Shown here: piece by piece, positions 6,266-52,071 of the stretch
How the letters are laid out: each line of letters opens with the position of its first letter
How positions within the stretch are numbered: position 1 is the first letter of the stretch
IMG/VR virus record: IMGVR_UViG_3300014039_000031
Coordinates: 7,725-71,724 of that record
Length of the DNA stretch: 64,000 nt
Reading direction: 5' to 3' (one strand)
From: a virus
Notes under the pieces: generated by a model
Told to the model about the DNA's origin: nothing
The model's input: only the letters and a program-made list of their open reading frames with translations
Database searches by the model: none
Position numbers and translations under genes: made by a program

Positions 6266-7461
6266 TAATGAGTACGCTAACGTATGTGATAAATTACGTT
6301 ATAAAATAACTGACTATTTCTTACGCTTTTTACCCAAGAGCCACTTGGTAAGCGCACGCTGTTTCCATCTACGTATCAATAGTAAATGTACTCTCGGTCT
6401 AACCCAAGATAGTCGATACAGCATTATTTGAAAAGATTATTCCATGTTTCTCTATTTGCCATTAGGTTATCTCGTAAAGGATATAAGAACCTATCATCGT
6501 AACGATTGCGGCCAACGTTAATTGCTGTAAAGGTTGATTTTGATTTATTGTATTTTTTCCCTAATGCTATCATAGATATATTAGTAAACAATAAATCATG
6601 TATAGCTTTTTTACCAAAATCTATATCAGCACACGCTTTATAACATAACGGATAAGTTTCATCATCTCTGTGCCACCTATGGCCAGAATTTATTTCACTC
6701 AAATATCCTTTACTAATATGATACTCGGCAGCAATATCATCATAATATTGTCCATTTTTAATTGCTTGAATAATTTTATCTTGTATTGCTTTTGAGTAAC
6801 TTGTTTTGTTCTTACCTAACGGATAATCTAATTTTTCGTTATAAAAATTTAAGCCAGAAGCTATGTTAGATAAAAAAGTGTTTGTCAAAATTGGATATTT
6901 TTGATAAATTTCAAAATATGCATATCCATCTACTAACATTTTTTGAATATCTGTCACTTGCTCTATGGTAAATACTTTACTACAAGCAACCCTTTCTTCA
7001 AAAGTTTTCGGATGCGGCATTTTGCCACTCCCGCCTATTTTAATATTGTATCCATTTTGGCTAGTTAATGATTTATAATATGCAATAAAGAAAATTTCTC
7101 TTTCGTCTACATATTCTTGTCCTAAACTGTCGTCAATTTCTTCTACAATTTCAAAATTAAAATTATTCCATCCATATTTTCTAATAGCATTGTGAAACGC
7201 ATTGGTGTAATCAGGTGATTTAGGATTATAAGCCGTAGATTTATGTCCACGTTTACGCTTCTCGATATTATTTGTTTGTCCTATGTATATTTTATCATTA
7301 ATTTTATTTGTAAATTTATAAATATAATGCATTTCCCCTCCCCTCATATAAAATAAATCTTTTCAAATTTTGCCACGAGATTTTACCCTCGTTAGCCTTA
7401 TATATTCTTCATTGGCTAAAAGTTAGAATTATAATTATATAAGACCATATTGATAAATATT
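6266..7461 (-). mobile_element. Intervening sequence B in dnaE carrying GIY-YIG homing endonuclease (group I intron-like)
   Basis: Separates dnaE exon 2 and 3 frames with stops; shares 16-mer ctacgtatcaatagta (6385..6400) with dnaB intron. Confidence 0.55.
6424..7347 (-). CDS. GIY-YIG homing endonuclease
   Basis: YIYKFTNKINDKIYIGQTNNIEKRKRGH N-terminal GIY-YIG. Confidence 0.8.
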   Translation of the reverse strand: MRGGEMHYIYKFTNKINDKIYIGQTNNIEKRKRGHKSTAYNPKSPDYTNAFHNAIRKYGWNNFNFEIVEEIDDSLGQEYVDEREIFFIAYYKSLTSQNGYNIKIGGSGKMPHPKTFEERVACSKVFTIEQVTDIQKMLVDGYAYFEIYQKYPILTNTFLSNIASGLNFYNEKLDYPLGKNKTSYSKAIQDKIIQAIKNGQYYDDIAAEYHISKGYLSEINSGHRWHRDDETYPLCYKACADIDFGKKAIHDLLFTNISMIALGKKYNKSKSTFTAINVGRNRYDDRFLYPLRDNLMANRETWNNLFK

Positions 7462-23697: not shown

Positions 23698-25572
23698 CTA
23701 GAGCTTAGTCCCTCGTCCACCCTTATTTGCTATTTTACCTGTAAAGTTTTGCGGCTCAGTTATTGTCATGGATACAATCTTATCATCATCGTCTAGCTTA
23801 ATGCCGCACATGCCGCCAGACCTGATACTACTTGCTCGCACACTATCTGCCTTAAAACTAATCTCTCTCTTGGAAGAGGTAAGTGTTACGATACACCCAT
23901 TAGTCTCTTGGATAGATACTATATCCACATCAGTTTTAGCGGCAACGATTCCACGCTTATTGCGCACACCTTTAGCAAATTGTTTTCCTTCACACTTTTT
24001 AACTTTGCCATCAGCCATTGCAAACATCAGATAAGGCTTGCTATCACGGAAATAGCTATCGTGCGCATAGATAATTTTTTCATCCTTATCTAAATTAATG
24101 ATAGCGCCAATTGCTGTACCCTTATCCTTTGGGCCGCACTCTTTAATATCCGCAGGTGAAATACGGTAAAACTTACCCTTATTTGAGAATAGAGCAATCA
24201 TCCTATCTTCTGCAATGCTAAATGCAGCGAAACCGTTATTTTTGAATTTAGAAGGAGAAACCTTTTGTAGATAACCAAGAGGATTAAAAACAATTACGAA
24301 GTTCTTAATTTCCTTTGAAGCAGAAGACTTGGCTTTCTTTGTCTTTGTAATCTCCTTTTGGACTACTTTAGTCCGACGAGGAGTACTATATTTTTTATCC
24401 ATATCTTTCAGCTTTTTTAAAAATACTTTATCAAGTTCTTTTTTATCATTTAAAATTAAATCGCATTTTGCAATAATTTCGCTCTTTTCTGTTAGCTCTT
24501 TTTCAATTGACTGCGTATCCAGTTTAGTCAGCTTCATTAACGGCATTGAAAGAATTGATTTGATTTGCTTATCTGTAAAGTTAAACTCATTTTTAAGCCC
24601 ATTTGCCGCATTAGCTTTATCATTTGAACCGCGAATAATCTCAATGATTATATCAATATTCGTTAAGGCAAATTTTAATCCCTCTAAGATTTCTTTTCTT
24701 TGAGCCGCGAGATTTTTATCATATTCAGCTTCGCGTTTAAGGCACTCAAAACAATGAGACAAGTATTCATCAACTGTCTGCTGTAGATTTAATAAAACAG
24801 GAGTTTTACTGATAATGCCATTCTGATTGACATTATACTGTGACCTTAAAGGTGTTGACTGAAATAGCTGCTGCAATACTTTTTCTGCCGCATACCCTCG
24901 TTGACATTCTACAACTAAAGCAATGCCATTCTTATCACTCTTATTATATACATCTTTAATACCAATTAAATCTTCTGATTCGATTAGCTCTTTAATCTTT
25001 ACAATTAAAGGTTCAATGTATACTTGATATGGCATTTCAGTAAAAGTAATTTCGTTGCCGTCAATAGTATATGTAGCTTCTACAATTACTTTACCTTTTC
25101 CAGTTTCATTGATTGAAGATAATTCATCCTTATTGACGATTGTACAGCCAGTAGGAAAATCAGGGTAGTATTCCTCTGCTTCAAATTTACCAGTTTTAAC
25201 GTACTTACCGATTAAGTTAATAGTTTCTTTAAGGTTGTGCGGCAACCAATTATTTGCAATTGAAACACCGATACCTTGAGCGCCATTGACAAGAAGTCTA
25301 GGAAAATATGATGGTAATACTACTGGCATATATTCATCTTCGCTGAAATTCAAAACCATTGGAACTGTATTTTTTTCAATTCCATTTAACATGAATTCTT
25401 CTGTGATTTTAGAAAGACGCGCTTCTGTATATCGGTCCGCAGCAATTGCGTCTCCGCCCAAAATTACGTTACCATTTGCACCATGGAAATCAACCTCTGG
25501 TACATTGTTTGTAAAAGGCTGAGACATGCGTGCGAAAGTTTCATAAATCGCTTGAGTCAATTTTGTTATCAT
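23698..25572 (-). CDS. Type II topoisomerase A subunit (GyrA/ParC-like) exon 2
   Basis: AIYETFARMSQPF... continues GyrA after HPHGD. Confidence 0.8.
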   Translation of the reverse strand: MITKLTQAIYETFARMSQPFTNNVPEVDFHGANGNVILGGDAIAADRYTEARLSKITEEFMLNGIEKNTVPMVLNFSEDEYMPVVLPSYFPRLLVNGAQGIGVSIANNWLPHNLKETINLIGKYVKTGKFEAEEYYPDFPTGCTIVNKDELSSINETGKGKVIVEATYTIDGNEITFTEMPYQVYIEPLIVKIKELIESEDLIGIKDVYNKSDKNGIALVVECQRGYAAEKVLQQLFQSTPLRSQYNVNQNGIISKTPVLLNLQQTVDEYLSHCFECLKREAEYDKNLAAQRKEILEGLKFALTNIDIIIEIIRGSNDKANAANGLKNEFNFTDKQIKSILSMPLMKLTKLDTQSIEKELTEKSEIIAKCDLILNDKKELDKVFLKKLKDMDKKYSTPRRTKVVQKEITKTKKAKSSASKEIKNFVIVFNPLGYLQKVSPSKFKNNGFAAFSIAEDRMIALFSNKGKFYRISPADIKECGPKDKGTAIGAIINLDKDEKIIYAHDSYFRDSKPYLMFAMADGKVKKCEGKQFAKGVRNKRGIVAAKTDVDIVSIQETNGCIVTLTSSKREISFKADSVRASSIRSGGMCGIKLDDDDKIVSMTITEPQNFTGKIANKGGRGTKL

Positions 25573-26926
25573 AAAGGCTTTTTATCCTTTATTTCTTATA
25601 GTTTCCTATAAGTTCGGCATATCTTTTCTACTTAATAATTTAAGTAGCCGCTGACTCTTGGAAGAATTATATTCTGTAATTACAGTTTCATCTTCTATGC
25701 TCTGCCCCTGACTAATATTTTATTACTAGCCTTCGGTTCGGATTAGCATATTCAATATTAATTTAATATTAAACTTAGCCTTCCCGCTTAATTCAGCAGT
25801 TTTAGCACGGCACGCGCTAAATCATATTTTCTATCTAAATAAATAGGACAATTTTCTGGATATAGCAGTTCTAATACGTTTTTGGTTCCCTCTCGGCAAG
25901 TTGTTTGCCAATAATATAAATCTGAACCAATACTTTCGCTATGAGCTTTTGGCTTTGCATGTTCCATTTTATGAGGAAAATACTCTTTTAAAACGCTGCT
26001 AATATAATTACAAACTTCTTCTGAACCAACTACACCCATTCTTAAATCTCTTGTAGTGGGTTTTCTAATCCATCCATCGCCGTCAATAATACCTCTAATA
26101 TAATTTAATTCAAGCTCTCTATCATTAAAAATAAATGGCTTTTCTTTTAGGCTTTTTCTTGGAGTAATATTATATTTTTGTAAGTCTTTACATAAATCAG
26201 TACTGCAAACATCAATAACCCAACAAAGATTATTCCTGTCATAAGCACCGCCATAGCAAGGTTTAATAACTTCATTTAATTTTTCTTTTGGATATTGTAA
26301 AAACTTAGCAAATTTATATACGTGTTCTTTGTCTTTATCTCCAAGACGAACCGTAACGTTATATGAAATATAATCTTTTGAATTCCCTTTGATTTTATTT
26401 TCAATAATACAACCATCTGCTAATAAGAAACCAAGCCAATATGCCATTTCTGGAGTTGGTTCTTCTCTAAAAATATCTCTTTTAAAATTGTATTTATATC
26501 TAACTGTATCCTCGTATCCAAGAACCTCTAGCCAATGACTAAAAACTCCATTTTGAGATATATTATATTTATCTCTAATTTCTTTTTTAGTAATATTAGG
26601 ATTATTTATATATTCTTGAATTGCTTCCCATTCTTTTGGTTCAAAATAATAGCAATATCCATTGTCTTCTTTTGGAAATACTAATTCTTTATACTTATCT
26701 TTCCAAGTTAATTTACAAAAACTATGCCTATCTATTTTAAACATATCTGCTACTTTTGATTTTGACAAACCTTTTTCATTCTCTTCCATATAAAACTTAG
26801 TTGCTTCATAGGTTGATACTTTTACTGCTTTCATATTTATATCCTTTCTTATATTATTTATCGCTATATAATATAAAAAATAGATATACAAAATAATAGA
26901 GATATGCCCATAAAAAATATAATCTA
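25573..26926 (-). mobile_element. Intervening sequence in topo A gene carrying LAGLIDADG homing endonuclease (inserted at HPHGD codons)
   Basis: Exon 1 ends ...WWPHG, exon 2 resumes AIYETF; stops flank. Confidence 0.55.
25788..26891 (-). CDS. LAGLIDADG homing endonuclease (double motif)
   Basis: YWLGFLLADGCI and IRGIIDGDGWI. Confidence 0.8.
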   Translation of the reverse strand: MYIYFLYYIAINNIRKDINMKAVKVSTYEATKFYMEENEKGLSKSKVADMFKIDRHSFCKLTWKDKYKELVFPKEDNGYCYYFEPKEWEAIQEYINNPNITKKEIRDKYNISQNGVFSHWLEVLGYEDTVRYKYNFKRDIFREEPTPEMAYWLGFLLADGCIIENKIKGNSKDYISYNVTVRLGDKDKEHVYKFAKFLQYPKEKLNEVIKPCYGGAYDRNNLCWVIDVCSTDLCKDLQKYNITPRKSLKEKPFIFNDRELELNYIRGIIDGDGWIRKPTTRDLRMGVVGSEEVCNYISSVLKEYFPHKMEHAKPKAHSESIGSDLYYWQTTCREGTKNVLELLYPENCPIYLDRKYDLARAVLKLLN

Positions 26927-27160
26927 TTAGTTAATTCTACCGTGTGGCCACCATAATGCTGCTACACCGCCATCAATCTTAGCAGACTTTACGTGTGGTT
27001 TGTCATTGGTATACTTCTTAGTATACATTTCCCAAAGAATACATCTTTGGCCTGGTTTCAAACCGTCTTTCACGTTTGGGAACGCGCGATTGGCATTTAC
27101 GTCATAAGAACTATCAACAAAATTCTGTTGAACTACGTCAATAATGTCTGCTTTATCCAA
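26927..27160 (-). CDS. Type II topoisomerase A subunit exon 1
   Basis: RAFPNVKDGLKPGQRCILW...HG = GyrA N-terminus. Confidence 0.7.
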   Translation of the reverse strand: MDKADIIDVVQQNFVDSSYDVNANRAFPNVKDGLKPGQRCILWEMYTKKYTNDKPHVKSAKIDGGVAALWWPHGRIN

Positions 27161-29063
27161 TATTTGCCTCCTCTAAATGTTGTTCAAGAAATTTTACTCG
27201 TGGTTCTACTTTCTTTCCATATAGGTCATTAAACATATCTGCTGTTTTTTCTATATCAAACACCGTAAGCAATTTCATATTTCTTGTTTCTGGCTCTAAC
27301 AAGCAGTATGCAAGTTCATTTGCGTCTTGTTCGCCTAATCCTTTCATCCTTGTTATTGCTTTTATTTTACTAGAATATTTTTCTTTATATTTTTGTAAAG
27401 CAATATCATTCTTCAAATAAATATATTCATTCTTTTTAGTAATAACTCTAAACAATGGTGGCTCGGAACAATAGACGTGACCATTAATAATCAATTCTGG
27501 ACAAATATACCAAAATATATTTAACATAAGATTTGAAATCGCTTCGCCATCAAAATCTGCATCTGTTGCTGTAATAATTTTCCCATAACGAAGAGATTTT
27601 TTATCATATTTACACTTTGCTGTTTTTGGGTCAAACTCTAATCCAAGAGCTTGAATTAGATTATTGATTTCTTGATTCTTAATAATAGTCTCTGGTTTTG
27701 CCTTTAGTACAGAAAGCATTTTTCCTCTAACTCCATAAACAGCTTGGAACTTAGAATCTCTACCAGCAACCATATTTGAAGATGCACTTCGACCCTCTGT
27801 TAAATATAATTCACAGATAGAACGGTCTTTAGACCAACAATCAGACAAACTTGTTGGCATTTTTAAAAAGTTATTACCACGCTTTTTATTATTCTTAACC
27901 GCTGCGCGAGCTTTCTTCGCTGCTTCTGCCGCACGTTTAGCCACAATGGCTTTCTCAAGAATGGCTTTTGCATCTGTTGGATTATTATCTAACCACACTT
28001 CAAGCTGTTCACCAAGAGTAGAAGTAAAAGATGTATCTACATCAATAATATCATCTTTAACTTGCGCGTTATATTTAACGCCTTTACTATCGATATTGCA
28101 TACAAGAATTAATCCTTCTTGAATTGCCGCACCATCTAGATTCTTTTCTTTGTCTTTAAGAAGATTATTTACTCTAGCCCATGAATTAAATACGCGGGTT
28201 AACGTTGATTTAATCCCTGTAATATGCGGCCCAGACGATGTTAAACCATAATTTACATATGAGACAATCTTAGATTGACTACTGGATGTAAAAGTCATGG
28301 CAAGACGAATATTATCCTCATTCATCACAAAATGATTTGAAACAATTTCAGTATCATTGCCACGCTTTTCATCTAACATGTCTTCAATACTATCATGTGC
28401 AATTTCAACACCATTTAAAACAACTTTAAGAGTGGGACAAATGCACGTAATATCATTGAAAAACTTTTTGAAGTGCGCAATAGATGTTTTATCTGTACCA
28501 AAAAATTGTCCATCTGGTAGATACTCTACATATGTACCAGAATGTCCTTTATCAATACCAGAGTTATGTCCAGTAATAATACCATCTTTGAATTCAATCT
28601 GTTCATATTTACCATCACAGACTGTTCGTGCCTTAAGACATTTAGAAAGAAACGTAACTAATTTACTTCCTAATCCGTTAAGGCCAAGACTAGACCCCTC
28701 ATAAACACCATCATCTGTATACTTACCAGAGGTATTCATCGTATCAAAAGCAGCCTGAAATACAGTCTTACCATCATCACGCTTTTGATTCACAAGAAAA
28801 CCTTGTGCATAATCTTGGATTGAACATACACCGGTTTTATCATCAATAGATACTTCAATTACATTACCATGTCCGATATTATGTTCATCTAACGCATTGC
28901 TGAATAGTTCCAACATTAACTGATTTGGAGTAGATGTGTCGCCGCAGTACATTGATGGACGTTTACGCACATGCTCACGTGGAGTTAGTGATTGAATTGA
29001 ATCTTCCGTATAAGAATTGCTTTTTAAGTTACTTCTCAAATTACTCTCCTTTCTTTTATACAA
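27153..29063 (-). CDS. Type II topoisomerase ATPase subunit (GyrB/T4 gp39-like)
   Basis: GHKL ELFSNALDE, TOPRIM ELYLTEGRSASS. Confidence 0.85.
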   Translation of the reverse strand: MYKRKESNLRSNLKSNSYTEDSIQSLTPREHVRKRPSMYCGDTSTPNQLMLELFSNALDEHNIGHGNVIEVSIDDKTGVCSIQDYAQGFLVNQKRDDGKTVFQAAFDTMNTSGKYTDDGVYEGSSLGLNGLGSKLVTFLSKCLKARTVCDGKYEQIEFKDGIITGHNSGIDKGHSGTYVEYLPDGQFFGTDKTSIAHFKKFFNDITCICPTLKVVLNGVEIAHDSIEDMLDEKRGNDTEIVSNHFVMNEDNIRLAMTFTSSSQSKIVSYVNYGLTSSGPHITGIKSTLTRVFNSWARVNNLLKDKEKNLDGAAIQEGLILVCNIDSKGVKYNAQVKDDIIDVDTSFTSTLGEQLEVWLDNNPTDAKAILEKAIVAKRAAEAAKKARAAVKNNKKRGNNFLKMPTSLSDCWSKDRSICELYLTEGRSASSNMVAGRDSKFQAVYGVRGKMLSVLKAKPETIIKNQEINNLIQALGLEFDPKTAKCKYDKKSLRYGKIITATDADFDGEAISNLMLNIFWYICPELIINGHVYCSEPPLFRVITKKNEYIYLKNDIALQKYKEKYSSKIKAITRMKGLGEQDANELAYCLLEPETRNMKLLTVFDIEKTADMFNDLYGKKVEPRVKFLEQHLEEANIG

Positions 29064-30513: not shown

Positions 30514-31950
30514 TTAGATTGTATACTTTTCCTCGATATAATCAACCAACTCTCCGCCATCTTCAACGTACTTAAGCATCTTAAATACATTGTCGTTGAG
30601 CGCGGTCATTAGATGCATATCAGGATTGTTCGAATTCACAATCTGAGTATGGTAATTTCCAAGGTCAAAGCTATAGAGAGTCGTGCGGCCATAGTTAGCG
30701 CAATACTCGTTATAAGAATACATTGCCTTATCATATCCCGCAGTAGACCAAAAATATGAACGCTTATCCATTACCTGCATATCAGATACAACAAAAATGC
30801 GGTCATAATTCTTATTGCGAATCATACCGAAAGCCGGAGCAATATCAGTACCATATCCGCAATGGTCATTATCACACATTTCACGAATAATCTGGAAAGG
30901 ACCGGAAGCCTTAGCAAACGTCTTCGTCTTTGCATCGTTACCGAACTTCACAAAGTCACAGTTCCCATTGATATATAGGGCTGCTGCGTAGCAAGCCCCA
31001 ACTTCCTTGATGGAAAGAGAAGACTTGTCGCCATACATATCATCCATGGAGCCAGAAACGTCAAGCATGATAACAGAAGTTCCATCCAACTCAGGCATAT
31101 TGCCACAAGCAATACGGAAAGCGGTATCAAGAGCTGTAATCACTGCCATATTCTGAACACTGAGATTTCGATAGGCCGTATAAATCTGATAAGGGAACAC
31201 AAGAGACTTGTGGATAGAGACTTCATTGATAATCTGGTCAACAAGATTCTTCTTGACCCAAACGTCATCAACGTCACTGTGTAGAATGTTGTTGAGATTG
31301 CGGATAAGGGCAAGATAACCAAGTTTATGTCCCTCTACAAGTTCCTTCCAACTAGTGGTACCAGTAGAAATACCAACTTCCCAAGTCTCAGGGGCAGCAA
31401 GAGTACCAGCCTTATACTTATCAATCGTCTCGCTATGAGCATGAGTAATATTGATAAGGTCATACATATTATACTGCTTACCGTTCATCTTATACTTAGC
31501 AATCTGATAATCACCAAGAGAAGAAAGATAATCAGCACAGCCACGAACCAGCGCATGAGAACGCCTGCCGCCAAGCATATCTACAGCTGCAAAAATCTCA
31601 GCTGGATCATCCGCGCGATGCATGAAATTCTTATAGAACTCACGCTTCTGCTCAAACTTCTCAAAATTCAGGCGAGCTGCGACAAGCTGAGAAGCCGAAC
31701 GCATACCAAGCTCATTACGCGCAAACTTAGCGCACTTGGCCGCAAACACAGGGCCATACTGCTCAATGATAGCATCAGTCAGCTTGATAAAACGCTCCTG
31801 TTGCACATCTGCGGATTCATAGAAGGTATTACACATCTTAGACGAGAAAATGAAATTCATCCACTCCTCGACAGGATTCTTTACATAATTAAGCCCACCC
31901 TCAAAAGAACGCTCACGAGAGGGCTTCACATTTTCATTAAACTTTGCCAT
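30514..31950 (-). CDS. rsr: Ro60/Rsr ortholog (TROVE + vWA domains)
   Basis: vWA MIDAS DVSGSM...GYGTD...FVVSD; YLALIRNLNN ~ Ro60 LLRNLGKM; SLVFPYQI ~ Ro60 HPFHIL; FEGGLNY ~ SEGGTYY. Confidence 0.65.
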   Translation of the reverse strand: MAKFNENVKPSRERSFEGGLNYVKNPVEEWMNFIFSSKMCNTFYESADVQQERFIKLTDAIIEQYGPVFAAKCAKFARNELGMRSASQLVAARLNFEKFEQKREFYKNFMHRADDPAEIFAAVDMLGGRRSHALVRGCADYLSSLGDYQIAKYKMNGKQYNMYDLINITHAHSETIDKYKAGTLAAPETWEVGISTGTTSWKELVEGHKLGYLALIRNLNNILHSDVDDVWVKKNLVDQIINEVSIHKSLVFPYQIYTAYRNLSVQNMAVITALDTAFRIACGNMPELDGTSVIMLDVSGSMDDMYGDKSSLSIKEVGACYAAALYINGNCDFVKFGNDAKTKTFAKASGPFQIIREMCDNDHCGYGTDIAPAFGMIRNKNYDRIFVVSDMQVMDKRSYFWSTAGYDKAMYSYNEYCANYGRTTLYSFDLGNYHTQIVNSNNPDMHLMTALNDNVFKMLKYVEDGGELVDYIEEKYTI

Positions 31951-32083: not shown

Positions 32084-32224
32084 AAAATAAAATAAAATGA
32101 GGAGATGTTAAAAACAGTACACAAAAGATACCGACCTACCCGACGCAATGTCTGCGAAGGACGGAGTTGAACCGCCTTTCCGCATTTTCAAGGTGAAGTA
32201 ACTGTTTTTCTATCACTCATTTTG
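32084..32224 (-). ncRNA. Y-RNA-like ncRNA upstream of rsr: long bulged terminal stem + tRNA-like acceptor/T-arm minihelix
   Basis: Own -35/-10 promoter; 5' strand aaaatgagtgatagaaaaacagttac pairs with 3' gtactgtttttaacatctcctcatttt; tgcggaa-a-GGCGG TTCAACT CCGTC-cttcgca; U-run end. Confidence 0.5.
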
Positions 32225-41236: not shown

Positions 41237-42172
41237 ATGAATGAAGTAGATATGCTCCGCAATGATTCTCTTGTGCGGGAAAAGGATTTGGGAAACGGAA
41301 TCTCGTCTTTCAATTTTTCCAATAAGTGCTTTTGGGATAAGAAGTGGACTACGGAGTCAATCAAGGCTCGCGGATTATTCTGTGATGTTAAAAATAACAA
41401 TGTTGTGGCACGTTCTTATAATAAGTTTTTCAATATTGGAGAGCGTCCTGAGACTGAAATGCTGAATCTTCGTACTACTTTTGCATATCCTGTGCAGGCA
41501 TATGTGAAGTATAATGGTTTTTTGGCAATCGTCTCAGCAGATAAGGATAATCCCGATAAGTTGTTCATCGCATCCAAGAGCACTAATGAAGGCCCGTTTG
41601 CGGGATACATTAAGAACATTATTAACTCTATGCTGAGCGAAGACACGCAAAAGGATTTTGCAAACACCTTGCATAATCTTAATATCTCTGCTGTGTTTGA
41701 GTGTATTGACCCAGCGCATGACACGCATATTGTAGAATATTTCAGTCCGCATTTAGTTATGCTTGATTGTATTTATAATTCCTTTGAATATAAGCACATG
41801 TCATATGAGAATATGAGAGAATTTGCATGTAAGTTTGGTTTTTTGTTTAAGGTTCGTTTTTCCATTTTAACAGATTGGGAAGATTTTACAAGTTTTATTG
41901 ATTGGCATAAGGATGATAATGGGATTGAAGGATTTGTGTTTGAAGATGCTAATGGGTTCATGGTAAAGTATAAAACTTTATGGTATCGTTACTGGAAGCA
42001 GGTGCGTGGCGTTTTGCAGCAGGTCTGGAACGGACGTGATATTGATTCAATCAAGAATATCAATAACAAGATTAAGCCAGAGCACAAGCAGCCGCTTCTT
42101 GATTTCGTAGCTTCATGCCGCAATCGTGATGCGTGTCCATCAGTAATTGAATTCCGCAACTCTTTATCTTAA
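41237..42172 (+). CDS. Ligase/nucleotidyltransferase-superfamily protein (RNA ligase-like; motif I KYNG, motif IV-V EGFVFEDANGFMVKYK)
   Basis: Motif inspection. Confidence 0.4.
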   Translation: MNEVDMLRNDSLVREKDLGNGISSFNFSNKCFWDKKWTTESIKARGLFCDVKNNNVVARSYNKFFNIGERPETEMLNLRTTFAYPVQAYVKYNGFLAIVSADKDNPDKLFIASKSTNEGPFAGYIKNIINSMLSEDTQKDFANTLHNLNISAVFECIDPAHDTHIVEYFSPHLVMLDCIYNSFEYKHMSYENMREFACKFGFLFKVRFSILTDWEDFTSFIDWHKDDNGIEGFVFEDANGFMVKYKTLWYRYWKQVRGVLQQVWNGRDIDSIKNINNKIKPEHKQPLLDFVASCRNRDACPSVIEFRNSLS

Positions 42173-45730: not shown

Positions 45731-45784
45731 GAGCCTACAGTGTTCCAGAAATATTGTAGGCTCATTTTTCTTTTGGCAAAGCCA
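45731..45784 (+). terminator. Intrinsic terminator (gagcctaca...tgtaggctc + T-run) ~100 nt downstream of promoter: short transcript/attenuator
   Basis: 9-bp stem + attttt ctttt. Confidence 0.55.
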
Positions 45785-46144
45785 GTTTAGTATAACAGTA
45801 ATACATCGCTCTTGTAAAGCGAAGCAGACAGGGCAGCACTGTCAACTGGCTCCAATATTTTAGTATTCTATGAGGATAATATAAAAGGAGATTCGACCAC
45901 TCCAAGCAATGCACTTGTATTATTCTCATAGAGTGCTAACCTTAGACACTCTCCAAGTGATAGTAGAGCGGAATTTGACCCCGTCTGTGCTATCCCAAGT
46001 TATAAGCGATTCGGGCAGTCGCTATACAAATTTGCCCACTTTAGATTATTAGATAGGCTACATAGGGAGTAGCTACCTCATGGAAAAGTGAATATCCACC
46101 ACCTGCCTATCTATTGTATTTAGTGGATAGGAAAGTGTGGATAT
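45785..46144 (+). other. Highly structured ~360-nt noncoding leader of HNH endonuclease gene; start codon region sequestered
   Basis: Many local and long-range complementarities (agataggc/gcctatct; aatatccacca/tgtggatat covering ATG). Confidence 0.45.
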
Positions 46145-46870
46145 ATGCTTAAATGTATTATTTGTGAAAAAGATTTTGTTATTAGACCAAATGGTAAAAT
46201 GGGCGGGGCAAATCGTCAAATTTGTTATAATTGCTTGCCTGAAGATATTAGTTCAAAACAAGAAAGACGAAAAGCTACGAATTTTCTTATTAGTCAAAAG
46301 CTTCAAAAAGAAAAAACAAGTCGTGGCTGCGATATTTGTGGTTACAATAGTTGCGGAGCAGCATTAGAGTGGCATCATTATAATAGCGATAAAGATTTTA
46401 ATCCAAGTGCTATTCCAGTATGTAATTGGGAAACATTGAAGAAATATCGTAAAGAAACTCAAAAATGTCAATTATTATGTGCAAATTGCCATAGAGAAAT
46501 ACATTATAAAAAATATTGGGGAAATTTTATTATGCCAATTGATAGTGGCCAAAGTGAAAATTTCAGAAAAGAAGTTTGTGATTATTACAAAGAAAACCTA
46601 AACATAAATAAAACTAGCGTTTATTTCCATAAAAATCGCGAAACAATTAAAAATATTCTGCTGTATTGTGGAGTTAAGATAACTAAAGAAGACAATCATA
46701 AATCTGTCAGTATGATAAATATTAAAACAAATGAAATTATTAAAACATTTTACAGTTTAAATGAAGCTAGTGATTTTTTAAATAAAGGTAAAGGTGGCAT
46801 TACCCATATATCTGATGCTTGTTCCGGGAAAAGAAAGACTGCTTACGGGTACAAATGGCGTTATGAATAA
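46145..46870 (+). CDS. HNH homing endonuclease with C-terminal DNA-binding module
   Basis: CDICGYN...HH...CANCH HNH motif; C-term TAYGYKWRY. Confidence 0.8.
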   Translation: MLKCIICEKDFVIRPNGKMGGANRQICYNCLPEDISSKQERRKATNFLISQKLQKEKTSRGCDICGYNSCGAALEWHHYNSDKDFNPSAIPVCNWETLKKYRKETQKCQLLCANCHREIHYKKYWGNFIMPIDSGQSENFRKEVCDYYKENLNINKTSVYFHKNRETIKNILLYCGVKITKEDNHKSVSMINIKTNEIIKTFYSLNEASDFLNKGKGGITHISDACSGKRKTAYGYKWRYE

Positions 46871-46899: not shown

Positions 46900-46929
46900 T
46901 TGACAAATTATCAAATAATTTGATATAAT
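46900..46929 (+). promoter_or_regulatory. Promoter TTGACA/TGaTATAAT overlapped by perfect 10-bp inverted repeat aaattatttg/caaataattt (operator-like)
   Basis: Sequence inspection. Confidence 0.5.
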
Positions 46930-47318
46930 GTAGTTAACAAAAGGAAAAACACTTCTTTTGAACATAGGGTTCCTAAACCAAAAGAATTAGGTGCGGCTTA
47001 AGGTTTCAGACTACAGATAAAAGAAACTTAGTGATTAAATAAATGATGCGAAAGAACGTCTGAAGAATCACGATTAAAATATGGTTTGCGGTTATCCTAA
47101 AACCACACCTAAAATTTTTCTTGACTTCTAGTTGAGAATAATGTACAATATATTTAGAAGAAAAGGGGAAAAAGGATAGTCAACAGTACCATCAACAAAC
47201 CAGTGACCCTGCGGCGAATATTAATGAGCCAATACCCATAAGATGTAATATCGAGTACGCTGTTAGGTTGATTAAATTTTTCTTCCAAATAAGTTTAAAC
47301 GCCAAGAGAAAGAGGTAA

Positions 47319-47429: not shown

Positions 47430-47466
47430 CAAGGCTAAGTCAGGTATCATTCTTTCTTAATTTTAT

Positions 47467-47600
47467 ATGCGTGATAGGGATTCAGTTACTTCATATCAAT
47501 AGCAGAGATATAGGCTGTCGGTTCGAATCCGACCATCTACGGATGTAGCTCAACAGGTAGAGCGATGTCATTTTATAGTCTGAATCCAAGATTTCCGCAT
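47467..47600 (+). ncRNA. Y-like ncRNA paralog with T-arm and D-arm-like tRNA mimic
   Basis: 5' atgcgtgatagggattcagttacttc; closing helix atgcg/ccgcat and ggattcag/ctgaatcc; GTCGG TTCGAAT CCGAC T-arm; GCTC aacaggta GAGC D-arm-like. Confidence 0.45.
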
Positions 47601-47608
47601 ATTTTTTC

Positions 47609-48061: not shown

Positions 48062-48291
48062 CAAAATAAAATATTTGACAAAATCATTTCGGTAGTATAT
48101 AATATAAATATAAAATAACAAGTCTTCAAGAATCTTAACTCATACGGTTTGGCCGCCGATAGAGGAACTACTAAGGACGGGACACCTGAATGCTAGCTAA
48201 TACAGGGAGCAGACAGCCAGTATTGTCCTTGATGTAATCGAATGAGCTATCTTGTTGTTTTATATTTATATTATTGGTCGAAAGGTTTCAA

Positions 48292-48498: not shown

Positions 48499-48948
48499 AT
48501 GTCTTACAACAAGGAAGAAGATTTGAAGTTGAAATACGCTTATATTCCCGATGATGCGGCAAATGCCCCTGCTTCTAAAAAGAAGAAGCCGTCTCCTAAG
48601 AAAGCCAACCATAAACATAATTATGATAAAAGTATTATCATCAATTATTATGATAAATATACTGGTAAGTGGACCTATTCATATAGGAATATCTGCACTG
48701 TTTGCGGCCGCATTGGTGATTTTAAAGATAAAGATGGAATCATCGCAAAGACTTTCCCGCACATCAGTACTTGTTGGTTTGGTTTTTCCGTTGCTTTTGG
48801 ATATAATGCAGAATTTGAGGAGTTTACCGAGTGGTCAAAAACTTGGTATCCTGTAATTGTTTGGAAAGACTATCAACCTTTATCAGATAAGTTTATTCCT
48901 AACGAGTTTTTTGATGAACTTAAAATCGGAACAGATAAAGTAGATTAA
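48499..48948 (+). CDS. Hypothetical protein with basic N-terminus
   Basis: ORF. Confidence 0.45.
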   Translation: MSYNKEEDLKLKYAYIPDDAANAPASKKKKPSPKKANHKHNYDKSIIINYYDKYTGKWTYSYRNICTVCGRIGDFKDKDGIIAKTFPHISTCWFGFSVAFGYNAEFEEFTEWSKTWYPVIVWKDYQPLSDKFIPNEFFDELKIGTDKVD

Positions 48949-48958
48949 TAATGTGCTT

Positions 48959-49046
48959 CGGGAGTTGATGGAATTGGCATACATAGCGGCCTCAAAAGCC
49001 GTCGGTTATTGTAACCATACGAGTTCGAATCTCGTACTCCCGACCA
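48959..49046 (+). tRNA. tRNA-Leu (anticodon CAA), type II, CCA encoded
   Basis: CGGGAGT/ACTCCCG acceptor, long variable arm ggtta-ttg-taacc, ACGAG-TTCGAAT-CTCGT. Confidence 0.75.
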
Positions 49047-49051
49047 GAACT

Positions 49052-49137
49052 GCTACGGTATCCCATTAAAGACATGGACCGGTCTGTAAAATCGGTACCT
49101 TAAGGTTGACTAGGAGCGTTACCTAGACGTAGCACCA
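49052..49137 (+). tRNA. tRNA-Tyr (anticodon GTA), type II, CCA encoded, atypical T-loop
   Basis: CCGGT-CTGTAAA-ATCGG anticodon arm. Confidence 0.65.
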
Positions 49138-49150
49138 ATTGTACTTTATA

Positions 49151-49244
49151 ATGCGTGACAGAAAATCAGTTACTTCTATTTTAAAAATAAGATATTGGTT
49201 CGATTCCAATTACCGCATAAAAACTGATTTTAGTATTTCCGCAT
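49151..49244 (+). ncRNA. Y-like ncRNA paralog (compact)
   Basis: atgcgtgacagaaaatcagttacttc (22-mer shared with the rsr-linked RNA at 32084..32224); aaaatcagtt/aactgatttt and atgcg/cgcat helices; ATTGG TTCGATT CCAAT T-arm; T-run after. Confidence 0.45.
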
Positions 49245-49677
49245 TTAATTTTTATTCTGGTATGTGATTGAGTTTTAGTTACTTCGAAGATATATATTAT
49301 GTTTTAAATTAATTAAAATTTAAATTAAAAGAACCAGCTTTTACGTCAGACTATAACGGCGTAACAAAAAACTGGTAACTTATACTAAAACTAGTATTTC
49401 CATACCTTCCTCTTTCTCTTGGATAAGTGATTGACCGCATAGTTACTTCATATTTTTGGTATAATATAATTCAGTCTATGTGATATTATTTCCTTATCTT
49501 AAACATTTTGCGTGATTGGTTCAAGAGATACTTCATAAATATTTTATGACATTTTTTTGCTCTCTCTTGGGCATACTTTCCGCTTTAATAGGGCCTTATG
49601 GTCCTATTTTTTTTATTGACTTTATACATACAATATTATATAATATATATAAAGAAAGAGAGAAAGAGGTTTTTTAT

Positions 49678-50217
49678 ATGAGCGTTTGGGTTGTTTCTGA
49701 TACTCATCTAAATCATACCCGCATCATGGAGTATTGTCCTGATACACGTGATTTTTCCTGCGTTGAGGATATGAACGAAGCAATTATCAATAGATGGAAT
49801 GACCGCATTTCCCCCGATGATATAGTCTATCATCTTGGTGATGTTTGTATGGGACAACTTGATACAATCGATAAGTATCTTCCTCGACTAAATGGTCATA
49901 TCACTCTCATTAAGGGAAACCATGATACGAAGGGCCGCATTGCCCGCATCCAAGAGGTTGTCGGTTGGGAAGTCCTCAACATTGAATGTATACACTATAA
50001 TGGTATTAACTTTCTTATGATGCATGAGAAGCCAGAAGACATGCATGGTAATTCTGAGAATGTTATTCTTTACGGTCATGTTCATGACGCTGCGCCGCAT
50101 GGTTTGCAGCCTGATTGGACATATCATGTTGGACTTGATACTAACAATCTTGCTCCTGTAAATCTTCATGATATTTGGATTGATGTCCAAGAGCAGCGAA
50201 TTAAGACTGGTGAATAA
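49678..50217 (+). CDS. Calcineurin-like metallophosphoesterase
   Basis: VVSDTHL, GDV, GNHD motifs. Confidence 0.75.
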   Translation: MSVWVVSDTHLNHTRIMEYCPDTRDFSCVEDMNEAIINRWNDRISPDDIVYHLGDVCMGQLDTIDKYLPRLNGHITLIKGNHDTKGRIARIQEVVGWEVLNIECIHYNGINFLMMHEKPEDMHGNSENVILYGHVHDAAPHGLQPDWTYHVGLDTNNLAPVNLHDIWIDVQEQRIKTGE

Positions 50218-51588: not shown

Positions 51589-52071
51589 ATGGCTACTCTT
51601 TATATTCTCGCAGCTATTCCAGCCGCAGGAAAGACAACTTGGGCGCATGAGCATCATTCTGAGCTTGATGCCAAGATTATCTCGCGCGATAACATTCGTT
51701 TCAACTATATGGCAAATGACCCTGATTTTCTTCCTTCCATGGATTATTTCAAGTATGAGAAGGATGTCGAGCGATGCTTCTATGACCAGATTAATTGGGA
51801 TTTGTGTGTGAATGATATGAACGTCATCGCTGATGCCACTCATATCTCTTGGAAGAGTTTAAAGAAAACCGTTGAGCATTGCGGCAAAAACGCGGACAAG
51901 GTTATTCTTGTATACTTCAATCGTGGTCTTGATATTGCCTTGCCGCAGAACGCGAAGCGTGATGGCGTTGAGCATGTTCCCGAGGAAGTAATCAAGCGTA
52001 TGTGGAAGAACCGCTATCAGCCTGCTCGTGCAAAGGCCGCAGGTCTTGTTGATGAATATATGATTGTGTAG
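51589..52071 (+). CDS. Polynucleotide 5'-kinase (T4 Pnk kinase-domain-like)
   Basis: AIPAAGKTTWA; IISRDNIRF; VPEEVIKRMWKNR align with T4 Pnk N-domain. Confidence 0.6.
   Translation: MATLYILAAIPAAGKTTWAHEHHSELDAKIISRDNIRFNYMANDPDFLPSMDYFKYEKDVERCFYDQINWDLCVNDMNVIADATHISWKSLKKTVEHCGKNADKVILVYFNRGLDIALPQNAKRDGVEHVPEEVIKRMWKNRYQPARAKAAGLVDEYMIV

What the first reader, a model, noticed from the sequence alone, without database searches (positions are those of the whole stretch)
49151..49244. Compact Y-like RNA copy immediately after tRNA-Tyr
The 94-nt unit atgcgtgacagaaaatcagttacttc...ATTGG TTCGATT CCAAT...taccgcat aaaaactgatttt agtatttccgcat folds into an outer helix (atgcg/cgcat), an internal loop, and an inner 10-bp helix (aaaatcagtt/aactgatttt) that encloses an A/U-rich segment and a perfect T-arm. 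It has the same conserved 5' strand as the rsr-linked RNA. It is probably co-transcribed with tRNA-Leu/Tyr and released by tRNA processing enzymes.
Basis: seen in the sequence. Interest (0 to 1): 0.7.

Follow-up and report, generated by a model that had tools for sequence, protein, structure and literature searches.

The report
Compact phage Y-like RNA, T-arm only
This 94-base stretch is a real, conserved small structured RNA gene, one of six copies in this phage of a stem scaffold tied to the phage's own Ro60 RNA-binding protein; it is a stripped-down relative of known bacterial Y RNAs that keeps only one tRNA-like arm.

Summary
Window 49151-49244 (+) folds as described: outer helix, bulged GA/UC pairs, internal loop, 10-bp inner helix, small hairpin and a canonical T-arm.

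It is one of six copies of a scaffold in the window: 5' GUGAYDR, an 8-bp helix, UUACUUC, variable cargo, the helix's 3' strand, NNNAUUUCC, and a closing outer helix. The 5' motif occurs 6 times against 0.01 expected.

I found 94 distinct modules in related uncultured phages, probably of Bacillota. Both helices covary while the loops stay fixed.

Nine of ten IMG/VR contigs carrying modules also encode a Ro60 of the same clade. In about 27 Ro60 loci, 1-5 modules sit directly upstream of rsr on the same strand.

Syntenic orthologues in phages with about 60% protein identity keep the T-arm through compensatory stem changes.

Cargo varies across modules: whole tRNA-like units, YrlA-type permuted tRNA domains, T-arm only (this one), or nothing tRNA-like.

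Rfam YrlA does not detect this copy, and the known CGAA Ro60 motif is absent.

Best reading: a compact Ro60-partner Y RNA of an undescribed phage subfamily. It is probably co-transcribed with tRNA-Leu and an odd tRNA-Tyr. Ro60 binding and processing are inferred, not shown.

The parts
49150..49245 (+). The whole compact Y-like module. The finder's 49151-49244 plus one further closing pair, A49150-U49245.
   Evidence: MFE fold. Same fold within the whole array. Consensus fold of 5 orthologues.
49150..49158 (+). 5' strand of the closing helix (AAUGCG). It includes the invariant GUGA: G49155 paired, U49156 bulged, G49157 and A49158 paired. It pairs with 49238-49245.
   Evidence: GUGA/UCC columns are invariant in 35 modules, and all 5 outer pairs covary. 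The close relative L121 has 49243 A->G, turning U-A into U-G.
49159..49161 (+). 5' side of the conserved internal loop (CAG; family consensus YDR).
   Evidence: Alignment A3.
49162..49171 (+). 5' strand of the inner helix (AAAAUCAGUU), pairing with 49222-49231.
   Evidence: Pair probabilities 0.85-1.0. All 8 family-wide pairs covary.
49170..49176 (+). Conserved UUACUUC motif at the junction of scaffold and cargo. Its UA corresponds in position to the conserved YUAY/UA of YrlA.
   Evidence: Nearly invariant in A3. AGTTACTTC occurs 6 times in the window against 0.41 expected. YUAY is described in PMC4201824.
49177..49194 (+). Small A/U hairpin before the T-arm. In orthologues it is a 4-5-bp stem with a 7-nt loop, like an anticodon arm.
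   Evidence: L125 6128-6232 and L189 4454-4561.
49194..49210 (+). T-arm AUUGG-UUCGAUU-CCAAU with a canonical tRNA T-loop.
   Evidence: In orthologues two stem pairs change on both sides (AU->GC, UA->CG) while the loop UUCGAYU is kept. The identical T-arm occurs in a module next to rsr in L275.
49211..49221 (+). Unpaired linker UACCGCAUAAA. It is probably a remnant of the 5' strand of an acceptor-like stem-loop that orthologues and L275 still have.
   Evidence: Alignment A2 shows a 10-nt deletion relative to orthologues. L275 2656-2759. The alternative pairing of this CGCAU with the 5' end is 6.3 kcal/mol worse.
49222..49231 (+). 3' strand of the inner helix (AACUGAUUUU).
49232..49245 (+). Conserved 3' motif AGUAUUUCC followed by the 3' strand of the closing helix. 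AGUAUU is the loop side; UCC pairs with GUGA.
   Evidence: Alignment A3. The TYTCC ending appears without being asked for in 30 of 53 hits to the 5' motif.
32096..32221 (-). Sibling module next to rsr. It has the same scaffold, T-arm-type cargo and its own 11/12 sigma-70 promoter at 32260-32232. It lies 146 nt upstream of the rsr start.
30514..31950 (-). Phage Ro60 (rsr) gene, 478 aa. This is the presumed protein partner.
   Evidence: Pfam TROVE, E 4e-12. PDB 9KOP/9L5Y, the Thermus phage phiLo Ro60, E 2.8e-24.
47466..47601 (+). Sibling module with a full YrlA-type tRNA-like domain: T-arm, acceptor-like hairpin, D-arm.
   Evidence: Rfam YrlA RF02553 scores 31.8 bits, E 2e-5, below the gathering score of 69. 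Fold.
49259..49406 (+). Second module of the tandem array. Its long cargo has no tRNA-like motif.
49422..49498 (+). Third module of the array, with the shortest cargo (26 nt).
   Evidence: It is the only copy found by model R1.
49507..49586 (+). Fourth, degenerate module: AGAUACUUC, CUUUCC, and only a 3-bp closing helix.
48959..49046 (+). tRNA-Leu(CAA), the first RNA gene of the same presumed transcription unit.
49052..49137 (+). Non-canonical tRNA-Tyr(GUA)-like gene with T-loop AGCGUUA and an encoded CCA. It ends 13 nt before the element.
   Evidence: ARAGORN calls it only at -ps90. Cloverleaf MFE. Conserved with covarying acceptor and anticodon stems in L189, L196 and L125.
48075..48103 (+). 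12/12 sigma-70-type promoter, the likely start of the unit that contains the array.
49587..49608 (+). Intrinsic terminator closing the array, followed by the promoter of the phosphoesterase gene.
   Evidence: The same layout is seen in L189.

Best explanation
The element is a small non-coding RNA gene of a phage-specific subfamily of Y RNAs, the partners of the Ro60 protein.

Its two ends pair into a long stem. The stem carries an invariant bulged helix (GUGA over UCC, with a bulged U) and an asymmetric internal loop. I infer that this stem is the docking site for the phage's own Ro60 (rsr, 30514-31950).

The stem acts as a scaffold that presents a variable cargo. Here the cargo is reduced to a small hairpin plus a canonical tRNA T-arm.

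The RNA is most likely transcribed as part of a unit: promoter 48075, two small ORFs, tRNA-Leu, odd tRNA-Tyr, four Y modules, terminator 49587. It would be cut out by endonucleolytic cleavage in the A/U-rich spacers and trimmed back to the protein-protected stem.

Once bound, it would do what other Y RNAs do: gate access to the Ro60 ring, or tether Ro60 to a factor that recognises the T-arm (a tRNA-modifying or tRNA-binding protein, or an exoribonuclease such as PNPase).

Shown here: the fold, family membership, covariation, and the link to Ro60 genes.
Inferred: expression, processing, Ro60 binding, and the role of the T-arm.
For: 1. The predicted fold matches the description and persists in context.

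2. Six copies of the scaffold lie in the window against 0.01 expected. One is directly upstream of rsr with its own promoter.

3. In 35 scaffold sequences, 97.5% of cells are paired and 13 of 16 pairs change on both sides. The covariation score is 0.84, against 0.18 when shuffled and 0.06-0.14 when slid. GUGA, UUACUUC and UUUCC stay invariant. A less biased test starts from the 5' motif alone: 30 of 53 hits recover the complement, the TYTCC ending and the outer helix.

4. Link to Ro60. Nine of ten module-bearing IMG/VR contigs encode a Ro60 of the same clade. One to five modules sit immediately upstream of rsr on the same strand in about 27 loci, and also in a Bacilli MAG contig.

5. Sibling modules carry YrlA-type T / acceptor-like / D domains.

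6. Syntenic orthologues of this very copy (L189, L192, L196; neighbouring protein 56-60% identical) keep the scaffold and the T-arm, with two compensatory T-stem pairs. The more distant L125 keeps the order 'odd tRNA-Tyr, then hairpin + T-arm module'.

7. The single substitution in a 99% identical relative turns U-A into U-G. That is tolerated in RNA on this strand only.

8. Precedent. Y RNAs are modular, with a Ro60-binding stem formed by the two ends plus an effector module (bioRxiv 10.1101/312249). Phage Yrl RNAs bind phage Ro60 and host PNPase (PMC12135203). Salmonella YrlA and YrlB, the two ncRNAs bound by Salmonella Rsr, are encoded next to rsr (PMC4201824); that they lie inside the rsr-rtcBA RNA-repair operon is my own knowledge, with the operon itself described in PMC7790460.
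Against: - There is no expression or binding data.
- Rfam YrlA gives no hit here even at E <= 10.
- The published Ro60-contact motifs (GGUCCGA; GNCGAAN0-1G / CGAA) are absent. The conserved loop is GUGAYDR.
- This copy is 17.2 kb from rsr and on the opposite strand, outside the published 4-kb same-strand criterion.
- The phage group with the closest Ro60 apart from the near-identical relative (70-71% identity) has no module next to rsr.
- Compared with orthologues, this copy has lost a post-T-arm hairpin, so some decay is possible.
- The single-sequence folding z-score is only -2.2.
- The modules used for the covariation count were pre-selected for pairing.
Confidence: 0.65

Rival explanations
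1. The scaffold is not a Ro60 site. It is a processing or stability cassette for RNAs of the phage tRNA operons. The paired leader and trailer with a fixed internal loop would be recognised by a nuclease (RNase III-like or phage-encoded) or would protect the ends. The neighbourhood of rsr is then just one more place where such cassettes are expressed.
For: Ten modules enclose units that ARAGORN calls tRNAs. Arrays lie inside tRNA clusters. The 70-71% Ro60 group has all its modules in the tRNA region and none at rsr. The known Ro60 motif is missing.
Against: Co-occurrence with Ro60 on 9 of 10 contigs, and tight same-strand adjacency to rsr in about 27 loci. 58 of 94 modules have no tRNA-like cargo to process. 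The embedded tRNA-like units I inspected (the L003/L124/L130 5419-type module) show no encoded CCA after the acceptor 3' strand, unlike the free-standing tRNAs of the same phages that I inspected, and one changes its anticodon between close relatives. An invariant bulge and an asymmetric loop are typical of a protein docking site rather than an RNase III duplex.
Confidence: 0.13
2. This particular copy is a decaying duplicate of a full-length YrlA-like gene that has lost its acceptor-like hairpin and D-arm. It has no function of its own, even though the family is functional.
For: There is a 10-nt deletion relative to orthologues after the T-arm, and a leftover 'ACCGCAU' resembling the 5' strand of the lost hairpin. 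The upstream hairpin is degenerate. Cargo is very plastic across the family: the full YrlA at 47466 corresponds to non-tRNA cargo in L189.
Against: Scaffold motifs and both helices are intact. The T-arm is perfect and is maintained by compensatory change across orthologues. T-arm-only modules recur independently, including next to rsr: window 32221-32096, L228, L230. The only change in the close relative preserves pairing.
Confidence: 0.12
3. It is a truncated tRNA pseudogene or a tRNA-derived DNA repeat, such as a recombination or mobile-element scar. The apparent stem would then be incidental.
For: It has a canonical T-arm, lies in a tRNA cluster, and homing-endonuclease genes are nearby.
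Against: There is no acceptor, D or anticodon arm. The T-arm is not a copy of any tRNA in the window. The flanks are family-specific motifs with RNA-type covariation that includes G-U pairs on one strand only. All copies are on the transcribed strand.
Confidence: 0.04

Closest known systems
YrlA (Rfam RF02553; Salmonella, Mycobacterium and mycobacteriophage Y RNA-like RNAs; Chen et al. 2014, PMC4201824)
   Same: It is the partner of a Ro60 orthologue. The two ends pair into a stem-loop-stem scaffold. A conserved UA-containing YUAY motif follows the stem. The effector module is derived from tRNA and has a canonical T-arm. A sibling copy in the window (47466-47601) has the complete permuted T / acceptor-like / D arrangement.
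   Different: This copy has no D-arm and no acceptor-like hairpin. The GNCGAAN0-1G motif is replaced by GUGAYDR. The 3' strand (AUUUCC) is as conserved as the 5' strand. Rfam gives no hit here and only 31.8 of the required 69 bits for the sibling. The element is 17 kb from rsr on the other strand. The genome holds six copies, four of them in tandem.
Deinococcus radiodurans Yrn1
   Same: Both strands of the Ro60-binding helix are conserved, with a bulge. The tRNA-like part is reduced: a T-arm, an anticodon-arm-like hairpin and a poor or absent D-arm. The order is not permuted, with the hairpin before the T-arm, as in this element and its orthologues (PMC4201824).
   Different: The conserved helix sequence differs. 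Yrn1 is a single gene beside rsr, and it is experimentally shown to tether Rsr to PNPase.
Salmonella YrlB, and Thermus phage phiLo Yrl1/Yrl2 (PMC12135203)
   Same: These are short Y RNAs made of little more than the stem-bulge-stem. The phiLo RNAs are phage-encoded, lie upstream of the phage Ro60, and bind it and host PNPase. They compare well with the many modules here that lack tRNA-like cargo.
   Different: They carry the CGAA motif. No tandem arrays in tRNA operons and no tRNA cargo have been reported for them.
Phage T4 stable RNAs 'species 1 and 2' (rnaC, rnaD) at the end of the T4 tRNA cluster (from my own knowledge, not tested here)
   Same: They are small stable RNAs of unknown function, co-transcribed with phage tRNAs and cut from the same precursor.
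   Different: T4 has no Ro60. No sequence or scaffold similarity was examined.

Membership tests
Y RNA (functional class: Ro60-bound ncRNA) | A long stem formed by pairing of the 5' and 3' ends, containing a conserved bulged helix. | tested here: met
   GUGA/UCC with a bulged U is invariant in 35 modules.
Y RNA (functional class: Ro60-bound ncRNA) | A known Ro60-contact sequence: GGUCCGA in animals and Deinococcus, GNCGAAN0-1G or CGAA in YrlA, YrlB and phiLo Yrl. | tested here: not met
   The sequence reads GCGUGACAG, and the family consensus is GUGAYDR. No CGAA is present.
Y RNA (functional class: Ro60-bound ncRNA) | Encoded within about 4 kb of the Ro60 gene on the same strand (criterion of Chen et al. 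2014). | tested here: not met
   This copy is 17.2 kb from rsr on the opposite strand. The criterion is met by the sibling at 32221-32096 and by modules in about 27 related Ro60 loci.
Y RNA (functional class: Ro60-bound ncRNA) | The genome encodes a Ro60 orthologue. | tested here: met
   Nine of ten module-bearing contigs carry Ro60.
Y RNA (functional class: Ro60-bound ncRNA) | Physical association with Ro60. | not testable with these tools
   This needs a pull-down or a gel-shift assay.
YrlA (Rfam RF02553) | Covariance-model score at or above the gathering threshold of 69 bits. | tested here: not met
   No match at E <= 10 over 48800-49800. The sibling at 47493-47581 scores 31.8 bits.
YrlA (Rfam RF02553) | A T-arm with a tRNA-type T-loop. 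| tested here: met
   AUUGG-UUCGAUU-CCAAU at 49194-49210.
YrlA (Rfam RF02553) | An acceptor-like stem-loop and a D-arm following the T-arm (permuted tRNA-like domain). | tested here: not met
   Only an 11-nt unpaired linker follows the T-arm.
YrlA (Rfam RF02553) | A conserved YUAY (UA kink) between the Ro60-binding stem and the tRNA-like module. | tested here: met
   UUAC at 49170-73. These columns are at least 90% conserved in A3.
tRNA | A cloverleaf with acceptor, D, anticodon and T arms that tRNA finders recognise. | tested here: not met
   ARAGORN and Rfam tRNA at E <= 10 find nothing at 49151-49244.
Phage GUGAYDR/UUACUUC/AUUUCC scaffold family (defined in this report) | 5' GUGAYDR, an 8-bp helix ending in AG/CG, UUACUUC, cargo, the complementary strand, 9 nt ending in UYUCC, and a 3-6-bp closing helix. 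| tested here: met
   This copy matches every element.

The most novel reading that the evidence does not exclude
The Ro60-docking stem may be a general-purpose cassette that these phages use to display interchangeable tRNA parts: whole tRNA-like units, permuted tRNA domains, a lone T-arm, or other hairpins. The phage would then make a battery of Y RNAs that point one Ro60 ring at different tRNA-handling factors, or that act as Ro60-guarded decoys and reserves against host tRNA-cleaving defences. This would work alongside the neighbouring RNA-repair genes (Rnl1 ligase, kinase, phosphoesterase). Under this reading the T-arm-only copy is a dedicated adaptor or decoy for a T-loop-recognising protein.
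Probability: 0.2. Interest if true: 0.8.

Novelty: new variant of a known kind. Interest (0 to 1): 0.6.

Why it matters
Y RNAs are the long-enigmatic partners of the Ro60 autoantigen. Outside Deinococcus, what their effector modules do is largely unknown.

This phage lineage offers a natural series: one conserved docking stem carrying at least four classes of cargo, in up to six copies per genome. It sits next to a tRNA set and RNA-repair enzymes.

That makes two questions testable with a handful of gel shifts and pull-downs. Which part of a Y RNA binds Ro60? What does the tRNA-like part recruit?

It also shows that the current Rfam YrlA model and the CGAA-motif rule miss a whole subfamily. 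Finally, it flags tRNA-like units embedded in Y scaffolds that genome annotators will call as ordinary tRNAs.

Tried and rejected
- Rfam at gathering and at E <= 10 finds nothing at the element.
- blastn of 48900-49700 against 50,697 phage records finds no match.
- Covariance model R1 was built from scaffolds with the cargo replaced by a GAAA linker. It finds only the copy with the shortest cargo (17.5 bits) and otherwise noise. The design cannot absorb 45-100-nt cargo, so it was dropped.
Hits without complementary 3' strands (L122/128/129, L123, L126, L131, L133) were discarded.
- An alternative fold pairs the 5' end with the internal CGCAU to give an acceptor/T minihelix. It is 6.3 kcal/mol worse and was rejected.
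- Own promoter: the only candidate is TAGACG-17-TATAAT (10/12). Its -10 box overlaps the element's first bases, so a transcript from it would lack the closing helix. Judged unlikely.
- T-arm as a recent copy of a window tRNA: no second match.
- CRISPR-like array: rejected. The conserved halves flank cargo rather than forming constant repeats, the closing helices differ between units, and I noticed no cas-like genes in the parts of the window I annotated, though I did not look for them specifically.
- Protein-coding: no ORF of at least 50 aa on either strand between 48949 and 49515.
- The first Ro60-based locus search, using N-terminal patterns, missed the Ro60 genes of several module-bearing contigs and briefly suggested that the modules occur without Ro60. 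A second search with other patterns found them.

Full report
**What is there.** The window is part of a large uncultured phage genome. It carries DNA polymerase III alpha, gyrase A/B, RecJ, NrdD, an Rnl1-type RNA ligase, an SPFH protein, RuvB and a TROVE/Ro60 protein at 30514-31950(-). The Ro60 matches the solved Ro60 of Thermus phage phiLo at E 2.8e-24. A 99% identical relative is IMG/VR contig 3300013901_000006, 145 kb. The nearest cultured phages by polymerase infect Bacillota, at about 37% identity. Related Ro60 loci sit in gut or rumen MAG contigs labelled Bacilli, Bacillota or Clostridium.

From about 40.8 to 51.5 kb the + strand carries a tRNA cluster. The finding lies in a 730-nt stretch with no ORF of 50 aa or more over 48949-49515. 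This stretch runs from a 149-aa ORF (ending at 48948) to a metallophosphoesterase gene (49678-50217).

**Checking the observation.** It gives a closing helix AUGCG/CGCAU, a bulged U, two further pairs (GA/UC), an internal loop, a 10-bp inner helix, a small hairpin and a T-arm AUUGG-UUCGAUU-CCAAU. The energy is -16.5 kcal/mol with z = -2.2. The same structure appears when the whole 569-nt array is folded.

The 5' strand matches that of an RNA just upstream of rsr (32221-32096, minus strand) in 23 of 26 positions. That RNA has an 11/12 sigma-70 promoter ending about 10 nt before it. The folding z-score alone is weak. The decisive evidence is repetition and comparison.

**A repeated scaffold.** The motif GTGAYDG-N6-7-AGWTACTTC occurs six times in the window, against 0.01 expected. 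The positions are 32216(-), 47471, 49155, 49264, 49427 and 49512. Each copy has the following parts, in order:
- a 3-6-bp closing helix;
- GUGA pairing with UCC around a bulged U;
- a loop YDR facing NNNAUU;
- an 8-bp helix;
- UUACUUC;
- a variable cargo;
- the complementary strand, then a 9-nt motif ending in AUUUCC.

Four copies form a tandem array at 49150-49586, separated by A/U-rich spacers of about 13-16 nt. The copy at 47466-47601 has a complete YrlA-type cargo (T-arm, acceptor-like hairpin, D-arm). It is the only one Rfam touches: YrlA RF02553 at 31.8 bits, E 2e-5, with a gathering score of 69.

**Relatives.** Pattern scans of IMG/VR, searches for Ro60 relatives, and synteny through homologues of the phosphoesterase gave 94 distinct modules.

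In an ungapped alignment of 35 scaffolds, with cargo replaced by a linker, 97.5% of cells are paired. Thirteen of 16 pairs change on both sides; the three that never vary are the GUGA/UCC pairs. The covariation score is 0.84, against 0.18 in shuffles and 0.06-0.14 with slid partners.

These modules had been selected for pairing, so I repeated the test starting from the 5' motif alone in related loci. In 30 of 53 hits, the first perfect 8-nt complement downstream is followed by exactly nine bases ending in TYTCC and by a closing helix of at least 4 of 5 pairs. None of these three features was required. Pattern hits in unrelated contigs show no such complementarity.

**Link to Ro60.** Nine of the ten IMG/VR contigs with verified modules also encode a Ro60 of the same clade, at 47-98% identity. 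The tenth is undetermined, because only the best 80 loci were listed. In about 27 Ro60 loci of 37-57% identity, one to five modules lie within about 600 nt upstream of rsr on the same strand. One example is L155, where one promoter is followed by four modules running into the rsr start. The same holds in a Bacilli MAG contig.

The exception is the group with 70-71% Ro60 identity. It has nothing next to rsr but six modules in the tRNA region. One of its contigs apparently holds both the Ro60 gene and the array about 17 kb apart, as in the window. That contig is L163/L238 and L190, matched by sample and contig length, so this identity is an inference.

**Orthologues of this copy.** In L189/L190, L192 and L196 (phosphoesterase 56-60% identical) the gene order is conserved: 149-aa ORF, tRNA-Leu(CAA), odd tRNA-Tyr, five or six modules, terminator, promoter, phosphoesterase.

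The module corresponding to the finding is 108 nt. It has the same closing and inner helices. Its T-arm stem differs at two pairs by compensatory change (AU->GC, UA->CG), while the loop UUCGAYU is kept. It also has a short hairpin after the T-arm that the window's copy has lost. The leftover ACCGCAU in the window resembles that hairpin's 5' strand. An rsr-adjacent module in L275 has the identical T-arm followed by such a hairpin.

In the more distant L125, the odd tRNA-Tyr is again followed by a module whose cargo is an anticodon-arm-like hairpin plus the T-arm ATTGG-TTCAATT-CCAAT. The only difference within the element in the 99% identical relative is 49243 A->G, which turns U-A into U-G.

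So this compact T-arm-bearing module is a maintained gene, not a chance fold.

**Cargo diversity.** Of the 94 modules:
- 58 have no tRNA-like motif;
- 16 have the permuted YrlA-type T...D arrangement;
- 10 contain a unit that ARAGORN calls a tRNA (for example L003 5447-5521, L035 2137-2210, L155 5633-5766);
- 10 have a T-arm only. These include the finding, its orthologues, and rsr-adjacent copies such as the window's own.

For the embedded tRNA-like units I inspected (the L003/L124/L130 5419-type module), no CCA follows the acceptor 3' strand. The free-standing tRNAs I inspected in the same phages (window tRNA-Leu and tRNA-Tyr-like, L003 tRNA-Ile) do encode CCA. One embedded unit changes anticodon (tac to tag) between near-identical contigs. 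I read them as mimics rather than decoding tRNAs, but this is an inference.

**Mechanism.** All characterised Y RNAs are modular. A stem made from the two ends holds the Ro60 site, and the rest binds an effector (bioRxiv 10.1101/312249). Phage phiLo Yrl RNAs bind phage Ro60 and host PNPase (PMC12135203). Salmonella YrlA and YrlB are Rsr-bound ncRNAs encoded next to rsr (PMC4201824). That they lie inside the rsr-rtcBA RNA-repair operon is from my own knowledge; the operon itself is described in PMC7790460.

By analogy, and given the gene linkage, I propose that the invariant bulged helix and loop dock the phage Ro60, and that the T-arm is the effector-facing part. A T stem-loop alone is a sufficient substrate for TruB; this is established knowledge from TruB-T-arm structures and was not tested here.

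The element has no credible promoter of its own. It sits between a 12/12 promoter (48075) and a terminator (49587). Co-transcription with the two tRNAs is therefore likely. Release would need cuts in the spacers. RNase P or RNase Z could at most free the side facing the tRNA, because the module has no acceptor-like stem.

Nearby lie an Rnl1 ligase (41237-42172), an AAA_33 kinase (51589-52071) and the phosphoesterase. This recalls the bacterial pairing of Ro60/Y RNA with RNA-repair enzymes.

**Comparison and novelty.** It works like a Y RNA and is closest to YrlA and Yrn1, but it fails formal YrlA membership. It has no Rfam score, no D-arm or acceptor-like hairpin, and no GNCGAAN0-1G/CGAA motif. 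It also lies outside the 4-kb same-strand rule.

Full-text searches found nothing on this scaffold motif, on tandem Y-RNA arrays in phage tRNA operons, or on tRNA units embedded in Y stems. I rate it a new variant of a known kind.

**Main uncertainties.** The open points are expression, actual Ro60 binding, and whether this shortened copy retains a role of its own.

Noticed in passing
window 49052-49137 (+); also L003 ~6315-6388, L030 ~340-415, L125 ~5990-6085 and ~6385-6480, L134 ~2290-2385, L189 4270-4356, L196 ~1720-1805: A class of phage tRNA genes has a non-canonical T-arm, NNNGG-AGCGUUA-CCNNN, and a D-loop without GG. In the window it is a tRNA-Tyr(GUA) with encoded CCA. Default ARAGORN and Rfam miss it, and ARAGORN calls it only at -ps90. 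The odd T-loop is identical across phages and anticodons (Tyr, Ile, CAU, GUU), while the acceptor and anticodon stems covary. This suggests a co-evolved, altered tRNA elbow.
   Followed up: partly
window 47466-47601 (+): A full-length YrlA-type Y RNA (scaffold + T-arm + acceptor-like hairpin + D-arm) lies directly after a 46-aa ORF. Rfam YrlA scores it 31.8 bits, below the gathering score of 69, so standard annotation would miss it. Its positional counterpart in L189 and L192 has non-tRNA cargo.
   Followed up: partly
L003 5419-5550 and 5878-6005; L035 2110-2242; L092 1285-1177; L155 5633-5766; L124/L130 equivalents: tRNA-like units that ARAGORN calls as tRNAs (Val-tac, Thr-tgt, Lys-ttt, Lys-ctt, Ile-tat) are embedded inside the Y scaffold. 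In the L003 5419-type module that I inspected, no CCA follows the acceptor 3' strand, unlike the free-standing tRNAs I inspected in the same phages. One changes anticodon from tac to tag between near-identical contigs. Annotation pipelines would count these as ordinary tRNAs.
   Followed up: partly
window 48104-48273 (+) and 46930-47120 (+): Two stretches of about 170-190 nt lie directly downstream of 12/12 sigma-70 promoters (48075-48103 and 46900-46929). Neither has an ORF or an Rfam match. They could be structured leaders or further small RNAs.
   Followed up: no
window 45781-45851 (+): Rfam tRNA matches here at 44.9 bits, but ARAGORN does not report it. This may be another atypical phage tRNA.
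   Followed up: no
window 41237-42172, 49678-50217, 51589-52071 (+): An Rnl1-type RNA ligase, a metallophosphoesterase and an AAA_33 kinase-like protein are interspersed with the tRNA and Y-RNA genes. Together they look like an RNA (tRNA) repair toolkit beside the Ro60 system.
   Followed up: partly
window 25557-27559 (-), against L120 14393-16317: The region between the gyrA-like and gyrB-like genes differs from the otherwise 98-99% identical relative. The window has a LAGLIDADG ORF (25788-26891) that the relative lacks. The relative has a different insert of about 1.3 kb, and the flanking 618 nt are only 75% identical. This pattern is typical of homing-endonuclease turnover. A NUMOD1 ORF (46145-46870) also sits in the tRNA region.
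   Followed up: partly
L137 and the other Ro60 loci of 70-71% identity (L136-L152): The phage group with the closest Ro60 apart from the near-identical relative has no Y module upstream of rsr. There an ORF and a promoter abut the gene. Six modules are kept in the tRNA region instead, so the Y genes have moved relative to rsr within this lineage.
   Followed up: yes
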